Position numbers and translations under genes: made by a program
IMG/VR virus record: IMGVR_UViG_2563366891_000011
Span: 1-30,301 of that record
Length of the DNA stretch: 30,301 bases
From: a virus
Taxonomy: Duplodnaviria > Heunggongvirae > Uroviricota > Caudoviricetes
Reading direction: 5' to 3' (one strand)
Shown: piece after piece, positions 2,713-12,713 of the stretch
Layout of the letters: every line of letters begins with the position of its first letter
Numbering within the stretch: position 1 is the first letter of the stretch
The notes under the pieces: generated by a model
What the model was told of the DNA's origin: nothing
What the model saw: only the letters and a program-made list of their open reading frames with translations
The model's database searches: none

Positions 2713-3537
2713 TCAGGCGGTGAAAGTACCAATAAAGGTTTCTACTTTGCTGTCTTTGAATTTCTCAACAAGCAGATCACGAAATTCGTTAGCCATTTCT
2801 TCCTGCACCGCTTCCAGCTGAATAATGCGCAGAACCAGTACAGGACGATCGCCAGTGATAATGCTGAGGCGTAATTTAAACGGACGTTCTTTCAGACCTT
2901 CAAACGGAACGCATTTAAATTCAAATGCCACTGGCATAATGTCTTTGGTCTTCGCTTCGACAGACTCCATCAGGGAGCGTTTGCCGCTGAAGTCATTATC
3001 TTCAAAATCAGCGGTCTGGTTTGCTTCAATCGTGATTTTACGGACTGCCGCAGCCGCTTTTGTTGCCTGAATAGCGTCACCATTAGCATCAAAGCCCACA
3101 AGGTAGTCGGCCCAGTCTTCGATCCATTCTGCCAGTGACTTCTGGGAGTTACGCTCGCCGTTAACAGACAACAGAGCAGAGAACGGTGCTGTCTTTTTCA
3201 GTTTGAGAGTGGCAGTGTTATCTGCGTGACCTGGCTCATCAATAGTACCCAGGTTAAGCACACTGACGGCACGCATATTATCGGCATCGATAAAGCAGCG
3301 GGTGCCTTCATCTGCAAGATCTTTAGAATAACGGGTAAAATCATCGATGCTGGCAGTGGAAAGTGCACCACGGAAACGGAAGCGATTTAAATTAAATTTT
3401 TCCAGATCATGAATGCGGAAATTCTCAGGCAATGCCACAGCATCGGCACCAATCTTACTGATAATTTCATTAACACCCTGAGCAGAAATAAGGGCATGGA
3501 TTTGATTAATTGCGGTTGCGTCTAAGTTCTGAGACAT
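2713..3537 (-). CDS. yfdQ: DUF2303-family protein (YfdQ-like)
   Basis: 274 aa ORF, ATG at 3535-3537 with GAGGA RBS; size and sequence character match CPS-53 YfdQ as I recall. Confidence 0.75.
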
Positions 3538-3602
3538 AATAAGTCCTCACTATATAAAGATATTCAGTGATGAGATAAATAATCAGTTTATTACGAACGA
3601 TA

Positions 3603-3965
3603 TTAACGACCTGCTGCGCGGAGTTTTCCGTCAGGTTCACCGGCAAGAGTCAGTAATTGTCCCTGGTCTTCCTGTAGAATAGTCAGGCGACCACCGCGAT
3701 TGACATACATCGGCGTTTCGGTGGTGTCTTCTTCGGAAATTTTCCCGCGGTTAGTTGGGCGAACATATGAGAGTTTGTGTTTGATTTTCACACGGTTCTC
3801 ATCAAACGGTTCGATTTCCAGATTGAGTGAGACCTTCCCTTTGGTTTTCGTGTTCATCACACCGGAAGCGACCTCACTGAGAACTGCGCCGATTTTGGTT
3901 TCAAATACGCCGCCGTCCAGCTCCCCGATAAATGCCTGCACATCAGTACTGCGTTCGCTAGCCAT
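3603..3965 (-). CDS. Hypothetical protein, 120 aa (YfdP-like)
   Basis: Internal ATG at 3963-3965 preceded by GAGGAG; the longer upstream extension in the ORF track lacks an RBS. Confidence 0.65.
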   Translation of the reverse strand: MASERSTDVQAFIGELDGGVFETKIGAVLSEVASGVMNTKTKGKVSLNLEIEPFDENRVKIKHKLSYVRPTNRGKISEEDTTETPMYVNRGGRLTILQEDQGQLLTLAGEPDGKLRAAGR

Positions 3966-4014
3966 TTTGCTGCTCCTCATCATATCGACCCTGCAAGGTC
4001 GGTTGGTTTCTCCA

Positions 4015-4148
4015 CAAAACAGAGAAGAACACCTGCGGTGGCAGCCGCCCGGATGGATTGGGTTATGAGCCCGTCGTCCGGTGATGCTCTTCTCTGTTTT
4101 GCAAAAAAGGACGGTACCAGCCGGAAGCAAGGGTACAAACTGGTACCG
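4015..4148. repeat. Nested inverted repeats: 14-bp IR (4015-4028 / 4088-4101, 59-nt spacer) and 9-bp IR with GGTACC cores (4112-4120 / 4140-4148)
   Basis: Read directly: CAAAACAGAGAAGA vs TCTTCTCTGTTTTG; CGGTACCAG vs CTGGTACCG; a third GGTAC lies between them. Confidence 0.8.
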
Positions 4149-4245
4149 CCAGGACTACACACAGCAATGAAACTATTGCCTGTCTTTTCACCACTTCAGG
4201 CTCGGTGGTATGCTGGAGTTCTCACACAGCCAGCAAGGAAACCTA

Positions 4246-4587
4246 ATGAACCAGTTTTATGTTCACGTTCGTCTGTTTGAAGCAACAGCCGAACAGACCA
4301 AAAAATTTGAAGAATTAATGCTTAACTTTCTGTACCAGAAAACAATCAAAGAGTCTGACGATAGCTGCTGCAGACTGATTCCAGAGGGATATATCCTCAA
4401 AAGCACAATGAACTGCCAACAAATCCTTGATCAAACTTTTTCCATTGCTAACAGTGCTGGTGTTGACGCAAATATATTTGTCTGCAAATTTGAACAAAGC
4501 GTATGCTTACTTCCGTCTGCTTCCTTAGTTGGCAACGATTTTGTTCATCACGATCTTACGCCTAAGCCCATCAAGCTCGATTCTTAA
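4246..4587 (+). CDS. Hypothetical protein, 113 aa, AT-rich moron-like gene transcribed against the leftward early operon
   Basis: ATG at 4246 with AAGGA RBS 6 nt upstream; extended -10-like TGgTATGCT at 4206-4214; low GC relative to flanks. Confidence 0.45.
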   Translation: MNQFYVHVRLFEATAEQTKKFEELMLNFLYQKTIKESDDSCCRLIPEGYILKSTMNCQQILDQTFSIANSAGVDANIFVCKFEQSVCLLPSASLVGNDFVHHDLTPKPIKLDS

Positions 4588-4833
4588 TGCCTTAACCATT
4601 GTGTCGTGATAAACACGGCTCACCCTCTCTCCATTGCATGGCAGTGGGGTGATCGTGTTAGCCATGAAATTCATGAACTTGGTTCGATCAGGGTCTTGCG
4701 CCTCGCAAGTCTTTAATGCCTGTTTTGCTAACAAAATACGGGCCTCAGTGCCTGCATTTGGCTCTATCTGCTGCAAACGTTTAGCGTCTTCCAGCAACAA
4801 TGCGATCACATGCTTCAAATCCTGCTCATTCAT
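4525..4833 (-). CDS. Hypothetical protein, 102 aa, first gene downstream of the putative PL (N-position gene, but not Arg-rich)
   Basis: ATG at 4831-4833 with GGAGAG RBS; its 3' end overlaps the convergent 4246..4587 ORF by 63 bp. Confidence 0.55.
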   Translation of the reverse strand: MNEQDLKHVIALLLEDAKRLQQIEPNAGTEARILLAKQALKTCEAQDPDRTKFMNFMANTITPLPCNGERVSRVYHDTMVKALRIELDGLRRKIVMNKIVAN

Positions 4834-4939
4834 CTATTCTCTCCACTGAAATCATCCGCTAACGAATCATCCTGGACTTCATATGCCCCAGGCGGCTACT
4901 TCGTGGGCGTCCTGCCTGTTCGTTACTGCAACATCTTTA

Positions 4940-4985
4940 AGTTGTAATCTAGTTGTTGTTTTGGTTGTTGTCAACAACTTTATGT
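4940..4985 (-). promoter_or_regulatory. Putative OL/PL: operator motifs including perfect 15-bp palindrome GTTGTTGTCAACAAC (4964-4978) and a leftward promoter (-35 TTGACA at 4969-4974, -10 TAGATT at 4946-4951, minus strand)
   Basis: Palindrome and sigma70-like hexamers with 17-bp spacing read directly; the AAGTTGT/ACAACTT motif recurs on the other side of the repressor gene. Confidence 0.5.
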
Positions 4986-5036: not shown

Positions 5037-5141
5037 ATGGACGATGCGCTTTTAATTACACAAGGGACACTTTCCTTCCGTGATTGGAAACTCTCAAATC
5101 ACGGGAGGAAGATTGAAAAGGCGGGTAATAATGGTAACTAA
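5037..5141 (+). CDS. Candidate small ORF (34 aa) with strong Shine-Dalgarno, in the gap between the operators and the repressor 3' end
   Basis: AGGAGG at 5027-5032, 4 nt before ATG 5037; no homology inferable. Confidence 0.25.
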   Translation: MDDALLITQGTLSFRDWKLSNHGRKIEKAGNNGN

Positions 5142-5168: not shown

Positions 5169-5855
5169 TTACCAAGTGCGCGATGACCAGAATACTCTAC
5201 CTATAACGTGAATTCTGGAACGCCTATCTTCGAAGGTGAGTATTTCATCTGGATACTCATCTTTATTGAAACTTCTTAGAATCAGACCACCGTCAGGTAA
5301 ATTGATCAATATTTTAACTCTAAGTAATACGCCATCACGTATGGCATAAAGATCCCCATCACGAATAGGAACCGTTTGGGAAACATCAACAGCAACAAAA
5401 TCTCCATTGTTAAGTACAGGTAGTAAACTATTGCCCCAAATTTTTACGATCTTTGCATTGGAGACACATACACCAGCTTTTCTTAAATCAATCCTTCTTA
5501 GCGGGAACCAGTCTACAGTTGATTCAACTATTTCAGCCAAACATCCATTACCCGCTGATAACTCGACATCTAGGACTGGAATGTTTGCAAAAATGTCAGG
5601 ATCTAATGCTGTACTTTCAGCCTCCTTTACAACAAGGTCTGGGAAAGACGCGTTATCCTCAATGCCCAATTGCAACCACTTTTGAGAAACCCCTAACACT
5701 TTAGCAATCTCTTTAATTTTCCGAGGCTGTTGAGTTTCTCCATTCTCGATTTTCGCTACGGATTGTTGTGAAAGCCCAATTTTTTCAGCTAGTTGCGCCT
5801 GACTCATTCCTGCTTTTTCTCTTTCGCTTTTTAGTCTTTCTGCCAATGTTTTCAC
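5169..5855 (-). CDS. cI: CI-type prophage repressor (N-terminal XRE-type HTH, C-terminal S24 LexA-like peptidase domain)
   Basis: 228 aa; GTG start at 5853-5855 with GAGGGGGA RBS; HTH segment MSQAQLAEKIGLSQQSVAKIENG; C-terminal Ala-Gly, Ser and Lys positions consistent with an autocleaving S24 fold. Confidence 0.88.
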   Translation of the reverse strand: MKTLAERLKSEREKAGMSQAQLAEKIGLSQQSVAKIENGETQQPRKIKEIAKVLGVSQKWLQLGIEDNASFPDLVVKEAESTALDPDIFANIPVLDVELSAGNGCLAEIVESTVDWFPLRRIDLRKAGVCVSNAKIVKIWGNSLLPVLNNGDFVAVDVSQTVPIRDGDLYAIRDGVLLRVKILINLPDGGLILRSFNKDEYPDEILTFEDRRSRIHVIGRVFWSSRTW

Positions 5856-5879: not shown

Positions 5880-5970
5880 AGGTTACAACTTTATGTTTTG
5901 GCTTTCCAACATCTAAAAGTTGTGATAAAAGTTGTTGTAGTTGTATAATCGAAGTTATCAACAACTTTAC
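5880..5970 (+). promoter_or_regulatory. Putative OR/PR: repeated AAGTTGT/ACAACTT operator motifs overlapping a rightward promoter (-10 TATAAT at 5944-5949)
   Basis: Same motif family as the OL side (ACAACTTTATGT shared); perfect TATAAT 43 nt upstream of the cro-like ATG. Confidence 0.55.
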
Positions 5971-5992: not shown

Positions 5993-6241
5993 ATGACACC
6001 TGAGCAATTAGCCTTATCAGAGGCAATCGCTCTGGCTGGTGGTCAATCAGAATTGGCTCGGAAGCTCACAGCCAGCAGTGGTCGTTTAGTAAAGCAACAA
6101 CATGTCTGGAACTGGTTGAACAGAGAAAAGCGTCCCCCTGCAAAGCTTTCGATATTTATTGAAATGACCACTGGCGTATCAAAAGAAAAATTACGTCCAG
6201 ATATTTTTCAAAAGATTAAAGACTTATCAGATGGAAAGTAA
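5993..6241 (+). CDS. cro: Cro-like HTH regulator
   Basis: 82 aa, AGGAGA RBS, divergent from the repressor across the operator cluster; small basic HTH protein. Confidence 0.78.
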   Translation: MTPEQLALSEAIALAGGQSELARKLTASSGRLVKQQHVWNWLNREKRPPAKLSIFIEMTTGVSKEKLRPDIFQKIKDLSDGK

Positions 6242-6263
6242 CCACAGTTTTAAGGAGATAGCC

Positions 6264-6821
6264 GTGGGTAAGCATCACTGGAAAGTAGAAAAACAGCCTG
6301 AGTGGTACGTGAAAGCTGTCAGAAAAACTATCGCAACATTGCCGGGTGGTTACGCTGAAGCAGCTGACTGGCTGGATGTAACAGAGAACGCATTATTTAA
6401 CCGCCTTCGTGCTGATGGCGATCAGATTTTCCCGCTGGGATGGGCAATGATTTTGCAACGTGCTGGTGGAACTCACTTCATTGCTGACGCTGTGGCGCAG
6501 TCTGCAAATGGCGTCTTTGTGTCTCTTCCTGACGTCGAGGATGTGGACAACGCCGATATAAACCAGCGCCTGCTGGAAGTCATCGAACAGATCGGGAGTT
6601 ACTCAAAGCAGATTCGTTCGGCAATCGAAGATGGGGTAGTGGAGCCACACGAGCAGACAGCAATTAATGATGAGTTGTATCTGTCAATTTCGAAGCTCCA
6701 GGAGCATGCAGCACTGGTCTACAAAATCTTTTGCGCTCCAGAAAAGAGTAACGCCCGCGAGTGTGCAGCTCCGGGCGTCGTGGCGTCGATTGCTTCTGGT
6801 TGTGGAGAAACTAACGCATGA
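6264..6821 (+). CDS. Putative CII-like early regulator (family uncertain; alternative ATG start at 6231)
   Basis: GTG at 6264 with AAGGAG 6 nt upstream; sits in the cII slot after cro; family assignment is tentative. Confidence 0.55.
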
Positions 6822-12570: not shown

Positions 12571-12713
12571 GTGCACAGAAAACCCCCAGCTAGGCTGGGG
12601 GTTCCGGAAAGCTTTCAGCTTTAAGCCAGTTATTAAAACCCCTTTTGATTTGTTAAAACACCTTGCGGTCTGGCAACTGCAAGTGTCAAACAAGAAATCA
12701 AAAGGGGGTCCCA

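What the first reader, a model, noticed from the sequence alone, without database searches (positions are those of the whole stretch)
4246..4833. Convergent, 3'-overlapping gene pair beside PL, one of them an AT-rich moron
The first gene downstream of the putative PL (4525..4833, minus, 102 aa) is not Arg-rich like lambda N. Its 3' end overlaps by 63 bp a low-GC 113-aa gene on the opposite strand (4246..4587), which has its own RBS and an extended -10-like element. Any leftward early transcript must run antisense through the 113-aa gene, so the two genes are mutually antisense. That is typical of an autonomously regulated accessory cassette (exclusion, toxin or immunity type), but neither protein gave me recognisable homology.
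Basis: inference. Interest (0 to 1): 0.55.

Follow-up and report, generated by a model that had tools for sequence, protein, structure and literature searches.

The report
Known prophage gene pair ymfI–ymfJ
The two overlapping, opposite-strand genes are the annotated but uncharacterised ymfI and ymfJ genes of e14-type E. coli prophages. The pair is real and conserved, and YmfI looks like a distant relative of the RNA-cutting antitoxin GhoS, which gives a testable lead to its function.

Summary
A 102-aa gene (4525..4833, minus) directly downstream of a repressor-controlled PL and a 113-aa plus-strand gene (4246..4587) overlap by 63 bp at their 3' ends.

They are not orphans. They are ymfJ and ymfI of the e14 prophage family (E. 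coli K-12 b1144/b1143), annotated with the same overlap. K-12 transcriptome work already lists them as a convergent "excludon".

ymfI is a real protein gene (dN/dS 0.14). All 45 ymfI loci examined have a convergent partner overlapping it by 63, 72 or 42 nt, even though the partner has four different N-terminal architectures.

New here: the YmfI core is a beta-alpha-beta-beta-alpha-beta domain whose best structural match is GhoS, the type V antitoxin endoribonuclease. Two remote YmfI relatives pass Pfam's GhoS threshold. The key GhoS arginine is not conserved, and no GhoT-like toxin is present.

YmfI-like genes always sit reversed inside the early-left operon of lambdoid prophages. This is the slot where the lambda record annotates a SieB ORF. 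The slot lies next to a DicF-like terminator, and in relatives next to kilR or dicB.

Most likely YmfI is an independently transcribed, GhoS-like factor acting on RNA. That function is inferred, not shown. Interest is moderate.

The parts
4946..4974 (-). PL-like sigma-70 promoter (TTGACA, 17-nt spacer, TAGATT), overlapped by GTTGTTG/CAACAAC operator-like repeats at 4952-4978
   Evidence: Promoter scan, 10 of 12 matches to consensus. The repeats are at 4952, 4964 and 4972 and recur at PR at 5931 and 5959. The site lies between the cI-like repressor gene (5169..5855, minus) and ymfJ.
4834..4938 (-). Leader of the PL transcript upstream of ymfJ. It has no unusual structure, and no N-utilisation (nut) site was recognised.
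   Evidence: RNA fold z-score 0.05. No Rfam hit. The block 4861-4924 is shared with SfV upstream of its different first gene, orf33.
4525..4833 (-). ymfJ-family gene, 102 aa, the first gene of the early-left operon. It has a helical N-module (aa 1-43), a variable linker, and a C-module (aa about 60-102) ending in a long helix.
   Evidence: ORF. PHROG 12693, E 1e-70. RefSeq calls this copy "hypothetical" and the e14 orthologue ymfJ. Modular alignment. AF2 model is all-helical with pTM 0.30. dN/dS is 0.20 for the N-module and 0.21 for residues 61-82. The K-12 orthologue is SOS-induced and a peptide was detected.
4246..4587 (+). ymfI, 113 aa. GhoS-like beta-alpha-beta-beta-alpha-beta core (aa 1-83) followed by a conserved tail predicted to be disordered; aa 94-113 of the tail lie in the overlap.
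4525..4587 (.). 63-nt dual-coding overlap: YmfI residues 94-113 plus stop, opposite YmfJ residues 83-102 plus stop, with shared codon boundaries
   Evidence: Synonymous divergence is depressed in both frames: ymfI dS falls from 0.68 to 0.31, the partner's from 0.45 to 0.12. dN/dS here is 0.23-0.31 in the ymfI frame and 1.0-1.2 in the ymfJ frame. The tail is absent from remote YmfI relatives of 92-102 aa.
4177..4245 (+). Highly conserved block upstream of ymfI. It holds the -35 (4187-4192), the extended -10 (4206-4214), a GCTGG...CCAGC hairpin between the -10 and the Shine-Dalgarno sequence, and the Shine-Dalgarno sequence (4235-4239).
   Evidence: The left boundary of homology falls at 4176-4178 in every locus. 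Mean pairwise difference is 5.2%, against 7.3% at codon position 2 and 30% at position 3. The hairpin shows compensatory changes. The fragment 4177-4214 also occurs without ymfI in SfV and in most of the roughly 545 E. coli genomes that have only a partial match.
4103..4163 (-). Intrinsic terminator of the leftward (PL) transcript, with weak resemblance to DicF sRNA. The stem is 4110-4150 and the U-tract is the complement of A4103-A4108.
   Evidence: Fold of the minus strand 3960-4250, z-score -4.6. The consensus hairpin has compensatory pairs and a T-run in every homologue. Rfam DicF scores 15.7 bits here, below the gathering score of 48, against 45, 37.5 and 34.1 bits in L047, L004 and L057. 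SfV annotates a terminator in the same interval.
4015..4101 (.). Long inverted repeat (CAAAACAGAGAAGA...TCTTCTCTGTTTTG) between the terminator and the yfdP start. Function unknown.
   Evidence: Sequence. It forms a stem of about 26 bp in the fold.
3603..3965 (-). yfdP-family gene, the next early-left gene beyond the terminator (context)
   Evidence: ORF. PHROG 204. RefSeq annotation.
5169..5855 (-). cI-type repressor with HTH_3 and Peptidase_S24 domains (context: it controls PL and PR)
   Evidence: Pfam and PHROG matches.

Best explanation
**What it is**
The locus is the conserved ymfI-ymfJ module of e14-type lambdoid prophages.

**ymfJ**
- ymfJ is the first gene of the repressor-controlled early-left (PL) operon.
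- It encodes a small, modular, all-helical protein.
- It is not an N-type antiterminator.

**ymfI**
- ymfI is a separate gene in the opposite orientation with its own promoter-like site and Shine-Dalgarno sequence.
- It sits in the slot where the lambda record annotates a SieB ORF and where sieB lies in Rac.
- Its product has a small ferredoxin-like core that is most probably a distant member of the GhoS superfamily. GhoS is the type V antitoxin that cuts one specific mRNA.
- It also has a selected C-terminal tail of about 20 aa, encoded on the antisense strand of the last 20 ymfJ codons. This physically locks the two genes together.

**How it most likely works (inferred)**
- YmfI is made from its own promoter in the lysogen.
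- It acts after transcription, by binding or cutting a specific RNA.
- The likeliest target is the early-left transcript that runs antisense through ymfI. That transcript ends at a DicF-like terminator and, in related prophages, continues into kilR or dicB host-killing genes.
- Convergent transcription from PL crosses the ymfI gene and its promoter, so the two transcription units are coupled.

**Shown and not shown**
- Shown: the genes, the overlap, their conservation, purifying selection, the fold, the slot and the terminator.
- Inferred: RNA as the target, RNase activity, and any guarding or exclusion role.
For: **Identity**
- The window is 99.8% identical to a RefSeq prophage annotated ymfI plus a hypothetical gene. 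The e14 orthologues have the same 63-nt overlap.
- YmfI scores 159.9 bits on NCBIfam YmfI_phage.

**Real genes under selection**
- ymfI has dN/dS 0.14, with 71 of 92 third codon positions variable.
- The ymfJ modules have dN/dS of about 0.2.

**Conserved geometry**
- 45 of 45 loci show the convergent overlap, despite four different partner N-termini.
- The left end of the module is at 4177 in every locus, while the right end varies between 4608 and 4925.
- In the overlap, dS is depressed in both frames and dN/dS favours the ymfI frame, 0.23-0.31 against 1.0-1.2.

**Link to GhoS**
- The AF2 core is confident.
- The YmfI profile finds relatives of 92-96 aa. These score 1e-16 to 1e-28 on NCBIfam YmfI_phage.
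- Two of them pass the Pfam GhoS gathering score of 21 bits over almost the whole model: P0161 at 28.8 bits and P0157 at 24.2 bits.
- In the MAFFT alignment GhoS aligns with the YmfI core with almost no gaps; GhoS M31 aligns with YmfI M25 and L50 with L44.
- Weak hits are reciprocal best hits in a small database.

**Slot**
- Remote relatives sit reversed inside the early-left operon, convergent with a small gene. Overlaps are 4-90 nt in L047, L051, L052, L054, L055 and L057. The downstream neighbours in the PL direction include KilR, DicB and ExoVIII.
- The lambda record annotates a SieB ORF convergent with and abutting N.

**Terminator and transcription**
- The terminator and its DicF-like character rest.
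- In K-12, ymfI-ymfJ is listed as an excludon present in at least 50% of 58 transcriptomes.
- ymfJ is induced late in the SOS response, and YmfJ protein was detected.
Against: - YmfI itself gives no Pfam GhoS hit at E <= 1.
- A profile-profile comparison with a shallow E. coli GhoS alignment is not significant (E 0.02, probability 2%).
- GhoS Arg28, which PMC4010927 calls the most important residue for RNase activity, aligns with Glu22 in YmfI and with His in the remote relatives.
- There is no GhoT-like toxin in the window.
- K-12 RNA-seq made with stranded kits shows ymfI rising 3.5-4-fold together with ymfJ rather than falling. Mutual exclusion is therefore not supported.
- The very high conservation of the 70 nt upstream of ymfI could reflect a recombination "linker" rather than regulation. 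Its first 38 nt occur widely without ymfI.
- In this window the genes beyond the terminator are yfdP/Q/R, not kil genes.
- PADLOC gives no hit.
Confidence: 0.5

Rival explanations
1. ymfI is an ordinary lysogenic-conversion or superinfection-exclusion gene, a functional analogue of sieB. Its protein acts on incoming phages or on a host protein, not on the prophage's own RNA. The ferredoxin-like fold would then be only a scaffold.
For: - Same reversed slot as the SieB ORF annotated in lambda and as sieB in Rac.
- Own promoter-like site, and AT-rich.
- Found only in prophages, never in 50,697 phage genome records.
- The catalytic Arg of GhoS is not conserved.
- The selected C-terminal tail looks like a short peptide motif for binding a protein.
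Against: - No membrane segment, unlike GhoT. That SieB is a membrane protein is my recollection, not a tool result.
- No PADLOC hit.
- The GhoS link points to RNA.
- It does not explain why the gene always converges on a small early-left gene.
Confidence: 0.25
2. The 3' overlap has no regulatory role. It is a frozen by-product of a C-terminal extension of ymfI into ymfJ and of mosaic recombination. The two genes function independently and travel together only because they share DNA.
For: - Remote YmfI relatives lack the tail and end close to the partner's stop codon. Their overlaps range from 4 to 90 nt, and two of them (L049, L059) have no overlap at all.
- Right-hand recombination breakpoints fall inside the partner gene.
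- ymfI and ymfJ RNAs rise together after SOS induction.
Against: - The tail is under purifying selection in the ymfI frame (dN/dS 0.23-0.31), so it is not a passive read-through.
- The reversed, convergent placement is kept across a family that has diverged to about 25-30% identity.
- Overlapping transcripts are seen in K-12.
Confidence: 0.3
3. YmfI and YmfJ form a protein-level toxin-antitoxin or inhibitor pair. The YmfI tail would bind the C-terminal helix of YmfJ, the module that is always co-inherited with ymfI.
For: - The YmfI tail and the partner's C-module are strictly co-inherited in 45 of 45 loci, although the partner's N-termini differ.
- The tail is selected and predicted to be disordered.
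- The YmfJ C-terminus is a long helix.
Against: - Co-inheritance is forced by the shared DNA.
- Remote YmfI relatives pair with unrelated partners: MKFQDLP-type proteins of 66-77 aa and, in one case, a methyltransferase.
- In the overlap the YmfJ frame shows dN/dS of about 1.
- No toxicity of YmfJ turned up in the papers read.
Confidence: 0.1
4. The plus-strand ORF is not a protein gene. It is a chance ORF or acts only as a cis-antisense RNA against the PL transcript.
For: - It is small and AT-rich.
- The reading frame has an upstream in-frame ATG at 4210.
- No peptide evidence for YmfI was found in the papers read.
Against: - dN/dS is 0.14 in this frame. Four of the five control frames give values above 1. 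The fifth, an antisense frame, gives 0.25.
- Length and sequence are conserved across Escherichia, Salmonella, Klebsiella, Raoultella and Enterobacter.
- The folded domain is predicted with confidence.
- Remote homologues exist at 25-55% identity.
Confidence: 0.02

Closest known systems
ymfI/ymfJ (b1143/b1144) of the e14 cryptic prophage of E. coli K-12
   Same: - Same two protein families: YmfI 96% identical and YmfJ 91% identical.
- Same convergent arrangement, 63-nt overlap, upstream block and position next to PL.
- ymfJ is SOS-inducible, and the pair is listed as a convergent excludon.
   Different: - The immunity region differs: a 228-aa cI here against cohE in e14.
- The downstream early genes differ: yfdP/Q/R here against xisE/intE in e14.
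- e14 carries an STnc100-like insert of about 168 bp between the terminator block and the ymfI promoter. The window lacks it.
- Here the host element looks like a complete lambda-like prophage.
GhoS, the type V antitoxin endoribonuclease of the GhoT/GhoS system (Pfam PF11080; PDB 2LLZ)
   Same: - Same size, about 95 aa for the core.
- In the MAFFT alignment GhoS aligns with the YmfI core with almost no gaps, and a Met and a Leu are shared.
- Two bridging relatives pass the Pfam threshold.
   Different: - YmfI itself is below the detection limit of the Pfam model.
- GhoS Arg28 aligns with Glu22, and Asp15 with Arg9.
- No ghoT-like membrane toxin lies downstream.
- The gene stands alone, reversed inside a phage operon, and carries an extra 20-aa tail.
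- RNase activity is untested.
sieB slot of lambda and Rac: a gene reversed inside the PL operon and convergent with N or ydaF
   Same: - The gene is oriented against PL transcription and lies immediately after the first early-left gene or genes. In the lambda record the SieB ORF abuts N.
- sieB-ydaF of Rac is in the same published excludon list.
   Different: - No sequence or fold similarity was found.
- YmfI has no membrane segment.
- In lambda the two genes abut rather than overlap by 63 nt.
Excludons: convergent genes whose overlapping transcripts interfere with each other
   Same: - The coding sequences converge and overlap.
- Overlapping transcripts are reported for the K-12 orthologues.
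- A PL transcript must cross the whole of ymfI and its promoter.
   Different: The defining mutually exclusive expression is not seen. Both RNAs rise after SOS induction.
dicBF operon of the Qin prophage (ydfABC-dicF-dicB)
   Same: An early-left operon under a cI-like repressor, made of small ORFs followed by a DicF-type sRNA/terminator and then a cell-division inhibitor. The relatives L057/L058 have DicF-like RNA and DicB next to a ymfI-like gene. L047 has DicF-like RNA, and its sister locus L048 has KilR.
   Different: - The DicF-like element in the window scores only 15.7 bits, far below the gathering score of 48.
- No dicB or kilR follows it here.
- To my knowledge no reversed ymfI-like gene has been described in Qin; this was not tested.

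Membership tests
YmfI family phage protein (NCBIfam NF051477, equivalog) | HMM score at or above the curated cutoff of 140 bits | tested here: met
   159.9 bits, E 1.7e-47, residues 1-90 on profile positions 1-89 of 89. RefSeq annotates the identical protein as YmfI.
YmfJ family (PHROG 12693; the e14 ymfJ gene) | Full-length match to the family profile and orthologous position next to PL | tested here: met
   PHROG 12693, E 1.2e-70, positions 1-102 of 102. 91% identical to the e14 YmfJ. Same position. No Pfam or NCBIfam model exists for it.
GhoS (Pfam PF11080), type V antitoxin | Score at or above the Pfam gathering score of 21 bits | tested here: not met
   YmfI gives no hit at E <= 1. The remote YmfI relatives P0161 (28.8 bits) and P0157 (24.2 bits) do pass. 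Any link is therefore at superfamily level and is transitive.
GhoS (Pfam PF11080), type V antitoxin | GhoS/Cas2-like ferredoxin fold | tested here: met
GhoS (Pfam PF11080), type V antitoxin | Catalytic Arg28, which PMC4010927 calls the most important residue for RNase activity | tested here: not met
   In alignment A6, GhoS R28 aligns with YmfI E22, and with His in P0156, P0157, P0158 and P0161. GhoS D15 aligns with YmfI R9. This depends on an alignment at about 10% identity.
GhoS (Pfam PF11080), type V antitoxin | Co-transcribed small membrane toxin (GhoT) immediately downstream | tested here: not met
   tblastn of GhoT against the window gives nothing better than E 0.22 over 7 residues. The only hydrophobic small ORF nearby (4063..4194, minus) spans the terminator and is not conserved.
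GhoS (Pfam PF11080), type V antitoxin | Sequence-specific endoribonuclease activity on the toxin mRNA | not testable with these tools
   Requires biochemistry.
Excludon | Convergent or divergent neighbours whose transcripts overlap | tested here: met
   The coding sequences overlap by 63 nt. No plus-strand terminator was convincingly found after ymfI. The K-12 orthologues are listed in the MG1655 excludome.
Excludon | Mutually exclusive expression of the two genes | tested here: inconclusive
   The published K-12 data come from stranded kits. They give ymfJ log2 fold change +4.8 and ymfI +1.8 to +2.0. This is not exclusive, but leakage of antisense reads cannot be ruled out.
Lambda N-type antiterminator (considered for ymfJ) | Arg-rich N-terminal RNA-binding motif and a boxA/boxB nut site in the leader | tested here: not met
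   8 Arg in 102 residues, none clustered at the N-terminus. No Pfam match of any kind, so none to an N-family model. The leader is unstructured with z-score 0.05. No Rfam hit.
SieB superinfection exclusion (considered for ymfI) | Homology to SieB and membrane localisation | tested here: not met
   No Pfam or PHROG function hit. The maximum Kyte-Doolittle hydropathy over 19 residues is 1.37. Only the genomic slot matches.
DicF sRNA (Rfam RF00039; considered for the terminator block) | Score at or above the gathering score of 48 bits | tested here: not met
   The window at 4109-4163 (minus) scores 15.7 bits, E 0.27. The homologous blocks in relatives score 45, 37.5 and 34.1 bits.

The most novel reading that the evidence does not exclude
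YmfI-like proteins are a prophage-borne branch of the GhoS type V antitoxins. They would be made in the lysogen and would cut leaky early-left (PL) transcripts, so that the DicF-like sRNA and the kil-type genes (KilR, DicB and similar) stay silent until induction. The "antitoxin" gene would lie antisense inside the very transcript it controls, and full PL firing would override it. That would be a type V-like module built from convergent genes rather than an operon. It would also assign a function to two E. coli K-12 y-genes.
Probability: 0.15. Interest if true: 0.7.

Novelty: new member of a known kind. Interest (0 to 1): 0.4.

Why it matters
- ymfI and ymfJ are among the uncharacterised genes of E. 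coli K-12. ymfJ is one of the most strongly SOS-induced transcripts in several data sets.
- The gene pair and its overlap are already annotated, so the finding as written is not new.
- A link between YmfI and the GhoS type V antitoxin fold was not found in the searchable literature. Nor was the observation that the whole family sits reversed in the early-left operon of lambdoid prophages, beside DicF-like RNA and kil genes.
- If YmfI does act on RNA, it would extend a toxin-antitoxin type known from essentially one example. It would also show how a prophage keeps host-killing early genes quiet.
- The idea is directly testable in MG1655.

Tried and rejected
**Alternative roles for ymfJ and its leader**
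- N-like antiterminator: rejected. There is no Arg-rich motif, no Pfam match of any kind and no nut-like structure.
- A put-like or other structured RNA in the PL leader: fold z-score 0.05 and no Rfam hit.

**Searches that found nothing useful**
- Pfam gave nothing for either protein.
- PADLOC gave nothing.
- A BFVD Foldseek search with YmfI gave nothing at E <= 0.001.
- PDB sequence searches with the YmfI profiles and with P0161 did not hit GhoS.
- hhalign of YmfI alignments against a shallow E. coli GhoS alignment was not significant.
- tblastn of YmfI against 50,697 phage genome records gave no match.
- IMG/VR scans with P0157 and P0161 found nothing, and the L047 relative gave one locus.

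**Toxin and terminator candidates**
- A GhoT-like toxin or other small membrane ORF: the only candidate is 4063..4194 (minus, 43 aa). It spans the terminator and is interrupted in e14-type loci, so it was rejected.
- A plus-strand terminator for ymfI: the scanner's site at 4695-4709 lies inside the variable linker of ymfJ and is absent at the equivalent place in L004, so it was not accepted.

**Resources that were unavailable**
- The AFDB50 fold library was not available.
- The e14 genome paper (Mehta et al. 2004) and the original GhoS paper could not be opened.
- ExcludonFinder has no held supplements.
Full report
**1. The observation**

The window holds a lambdoid immunity region:
- a cI-type repressor at 5169..5855 on the minus strand, with HTH_3 and Peptidase_S24 domains;
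- a Cro/YdaS-type gene at 5993..6241 on the plus strand;
- a CII/YmfL-type gene at 6231..6821.

A PL-like promoter (TTGACA-17-TAGATT) lies at 4974..4946 on the minus strand. It sits within GTTGTTG/CAACAAC repeats that recur at PR.

The first ORF downstream of PL is 4525..4833 (minus, 102 aa). The plus-strand ORF 4246..4587 (113 aa) overlaps its 3' end by exactly 63 nt.

ymfI has a Shine-Dalgarno sequence (AAGGA, 4235-4239). It also has a weak-consensus promoter with an extended -10: TTCACC at 4187-4192, a 16-nt spacer, then TG-n-TATGCT at 4206-4214.

ymfI has 39.5% GC against 50.8% for the window, although cI is equally AT-rich.

**2. Identity**

The stretch is 99.8% identical to a prophage of E. 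coli FDAARGOS_1295. RefSeq annotates the pair there as ymfI plus a hypothetical protein.

It is about 95% identical to the e14 prophage of K-12-type strains. There the genes are ymfI and ymfJ, with the same 63-nt overlap.
- YmfI passes the NCBIfam equivalog YmfI_phage at 159.9 bits against a cutoff of 140.
- Both proteins have PHROG families of unknown function.

The proteins are named but uncharacterised.

The surrounding element looks like a complete lambda-like prophage, with a Q antiterminator, lysis genes, terminase, head and tail genes.

Full-length ymfI occurs in 303 of 5,426 complete E. coli genomes. It occurs in none of 50,697 phage genome records.

**3. Is ymfI a real gene, and is the overlap conserved?**

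I collected 45 loci carrying ymfI. They gave 23 distinct ymfI DNA sequences.

*Coding test*
- For codons 1-92, outside the overlap, Nei-Gojobori dN/dS is 0.14.
- 71 of 92 third positions vary, against 36 first and 23 second positions.
- Four of the five control frames give ratios of 1.2-2.4. The fifth, an antisense frame, gives 0.25, still above the ymfI frame.
- ymfI is therefore a protein gene under purifying selection.

*Overlap*
- Every one of the 45 loci has a convergent gene overlapping ymfI. The overlap is 63 nt in 41 loci, 72 nt in 3 and 42 nt in 1.
- The partner comes in at least four architectures: YmfJ-type of 102 aa, and three others of 121-126 aa with unrelated N-termini.
- All four share only the last 33-45 residues (...GV.RVYHDTMVKALRIEL..LR..I..NEIVAN).

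*Module boundaries*
- DNA homology to the window always starts at 4176-4178.
- It ends at variable points between 4608 and 4925.
- The inherited unit is therefore the ymfI promoter block, ymfI, and the 3' end of the convergent gene.

**4. The overlap itself**

The two frames share codon boundaries on opposite strands. Synonymous divergence drops in both frames inside the overlap:
- ymfI dS falls from 0.68 to 0.31;
- the partner's dS falls from 0.45 to 0.12.

This is as expected for dual coding. dN/dS inside the overlap is 0.23-0.31 in the ymfI frame but 1.0-1.2 in the ymfJ frame.

Remote YmfI relatives are 92-102 aa long and lack residues 94-113. The overlap therefore arose by a C-terminal extension of ymfI into the antisense strand of ymfJ.

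That extension is now the more strongly selected reading of these 63 nt, although AlphaFold predicts it to be disordered. Its invariant core is L-V-G-N-D-F.

**5. What YmfI looks like**

AlphaFold2 on a 17-sequence alignment gives a confident core (pLDDT 85-93). The order of elements is strand, helix, strand, helix, strand, with a short extra strand after the first helix.

*Evidence for a link to GhoS*
- A profile search of 1.84 billion proteins found only 15 hits. They include relatives of 92-96 aa at 25-55% identity, which NCBIfam YmfI_phage recognises at 1e-16 to 1e-28.
- Two of these pass the Pfam gathering score for GhoS (PF11080, 21 bits) over nearly the whole model: P0161 at 28.8 bits and P0157 at 24.2 bits.
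- MAFFT aligns GhoS with the YmfI core with almost no gaps, and a Met and a Leu are shared.
- In a small database the remote-YmfI profile and the GhoS profile are each other's best non-family hits, though weakly, at E 0.04-0.5.

*Evidence against*
- YmfI itself does not hit the Pfam model.
- hhalign against a shallow GhoS alignment is not significant.
- PDB sequence searches find nothing.

I put the probability of superfamily-level homology at roughly 0.65.

*Defining functional features of GhoS*
- Arg28, called the most important residue for GhoS RNase activity in PMC4010927, aligns with Glu22. Asp15 aligns with Arg9. This is possibly a swapped charge pair, but that is speculation.
- No GhoT-like toxin is present.

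YmfI should therefore not be filed as a GhoS antitoxin. It is a GhoS-like protein of untested activity. No paper in the searchable library connects YmfI with GhoS.

**6. The slot**

The remote relatives sit in the same place: reversed inside the early-left operon of lambdoid prophages, between the cI-type repressor and the recombination or excision genes. All but two (L049, L059) converge on a small gene.

| Locus | Geometry with the convergent partner |
|---|---|
| L047 | 42-nt overlap with a YmfJ-like 115-aa gene |
| L051 | 4-nt overlap |
| L052 | 44-nt overlap |
| L054 | 55-nt overlap |
| L055 | 14-nt overlap |
| L057 | 90-nt overlap |
| L059 | No partner called; about 400 nt from the repressor gene |
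| L049 | 48-nt gap to a methyltransferase gene |

The next genes in the PL direction are often host-killing genes: KilR in L048, L054 and L059, and DicB in L057/L058.

This is also where the lambda record annotates a SieB ORF, convergent with and abutting N. In Rac, sieB-ydaF appears in the same published excludon list.

**7. RNA elements on the PL strand**

Just beyond the ymfI promoter the minus strand carries a strong hairpin (4110-4150) followed by six U residues (z-score -4.6 for 3960-4250). The hairpin is conserved with compensatory changes and a T-run in homologues, so it is an intrinsic terminator.

Rfam's DicF model matches this block:

| Locus | DicF score (gathering score 48 bits) |
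|---|---|
| Window | 15.7 bits |
| L047 | 45 bits |
| L004 | 37.5 bits |
| L057 | 34.1 bits |

In e14 and several relatives, an STnc100-like element (33-43.5 bits, gathering score 47) lies between this block and the ymfI promoter. The window lacks it; compared with e14, about 168 bp are missing between 4166 and 4177.

An un-antiterminated PL transcript would therefore consist of ymfJ, a full antisense copy of ymfI and its promoter, and a DicF-like 3' end.

The 70 nt upstream of ymfI are the most conserved part of the module. Their mean pairwise difference is 5.2%, against 7.3% at codon position 2 and 30% at position 3. They contain a hairpin with compensatory changes.

The first 38 nt of this block also occur without ymfI in SfV and in hundreds of E. 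coli genomes. The conservation may therefore mark a recombination linker rather than regulation.

**8. Expression data for the K-12 orthologues (from papers)**
- ymfJ is induced late in the SOS response (log2 fold change +4.8), and YmfJ protein rises (PMC11002266).
- ymfJ is also up in hupAB mutants (PMC2634741) and in dam mutants (PMC11741368).
- A YmfJ peptide has been detected (PMC10557376).
- ymfI-ymfJ is in the MG1655 "excludome", meaning overlapping transcripts in at least half of 58 transcriptomes (PMC12288877).
- ymfI RNA rises 3.5-4-fold together with ymfJ in two data sets made with stranded kits.

Transcription of both strands is therefore documented. Mutual exclusion is not.

**9. 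Mechanism and verdict**

*Shown*
- Two real genes and a conserved dual-coding 3' overlap.
- A GhoS-like fold for YmfI and a conserved reversed slot.
- A terminator that forces PL transcripts to cross ymfI.

*Inferred*
- YmfI is expressed from its own promoter in the lysogen.
- Like GhoS, it acts on a specific RNA, most plausibly the early-left transcript that carries DicF-like RNA and, in relatives, kil genes.
- PL transcription feeds back on ymfI.

*Rivals*
- A plain exclusion or conversion protein.
- A neutral frozen overlap.
- A YmfI-YmfJ protein pair.

The rivals remain open. A non-coding ymfI is excluded.

The finding as written describes an already annotated gene pair. The added value is the GhoS link and the family-wide architecture. 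I rate it a new member of known kinds (GhoS-like fold, excludon-type arrangement, moron in the sieB slot), with moderate interest.

Noticed in passing
window 4103-4163 (minus strand): The intrinsic terminator just left of the ymfI promoter resembles the prophage sRNA DicF. It scores 15.7 bits in Rfam RF00039 here, against 34-45 bits for the homologous blocks in L057, L004 and L047 (gathering score 48). A PL transcript ending here would carry a DicF-like 3' end.
   Followed up: partly
window 4166/4177 junction; L003 3772-3994 (minus); also L051, L055, L057, L059: e14 and several relatives carry an STnc100-like element (RF02076, 33-43.5 bits, gathering score 47) between the DicF-like block and the ymfI promoter. 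The window lacks it; compared with e14, about 168 bp are missing here. The same junction holds a different, larger insert in L004.
   Followed up: partly
L004 about 3297-3930: A GC-rich stretch of about 640 bp with no called gene is inserted at the same junction upstream of ymfI. It has no Rfam match at E <= 1. Its nature is unknown.
   Followed up: partly
window 4015-4101: A long inverted repeat (CAAAACAGAGAAGA...TCTTCTCTGTTTTG) lies between the terminator and the yfdP start. It folds into a stem of about 26 bp on the PL strand. Function unknown.
   Followed up: no
window 5037..5141 (plus strand): A 34-aa ORF (MDDALLITQGTLSFRDWKLSNHGRKIEKAGNNGN) with a very strong Shine-Dalgarno sequence (AAAGGAGG) lies between PL and the end of cI. 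It is on the strand opposite to both and is not annotated in RefSeq. My conservation check used the wrong frame, so it remains untested.
   Followed up: no
window 4177-4214; SfV (L001 3435-3472): The 38 nt that carry the ymfI -35 element and extended -10 occur without ymfI in phage SfV. About 545 complete E. coli genomes likewise match only the first 33-65 nt of the 4177-4587 query. This suggests a mosaic "linker" or a promoter reused for other cargo.
   Followed up: partly
window 4525-4833 and proteins P0031-P0150: Small early-left proteins of these prophages are mosaics of at least three modules of about 40 aa. These are the ELKHVIALLLEDAKRLQQIEPNAGTEARI N-module, the MEFKDLP..QEIAAQ module and the YHDTMVKALRIEL C-module. 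They occur in different combinations.
   Followed up: partly
window 12581-12704 (plus strand): The only Rfam match above its gathering score in the window is the STnc490 Hfq-binding sRNA (146 bits). It lies in the late-regulation region of the prophage.
   Followed up: no
L004 2907-3108, L006 6744-6932, L054 3447-3645: C4 antisense RNA, isrK and c4-a1b1 matches (P1-type c4/ant immunity RNAs) sit next to Phage_ASH/pRha genes in L004 and L006, two of the related prophages. Nothing comparable is in the window.
   Followed up: no
window 4063..4194 (minus strand): A 43-aa GTG-initiated ORF with one strongly hydrophobic segment (MVKRQAIVSLLCVVLAVPVCTLASGW...) spans the terminator hairpin. It is interrupted in e14-type loci, so it is probably spurious.
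   Followed up: yes
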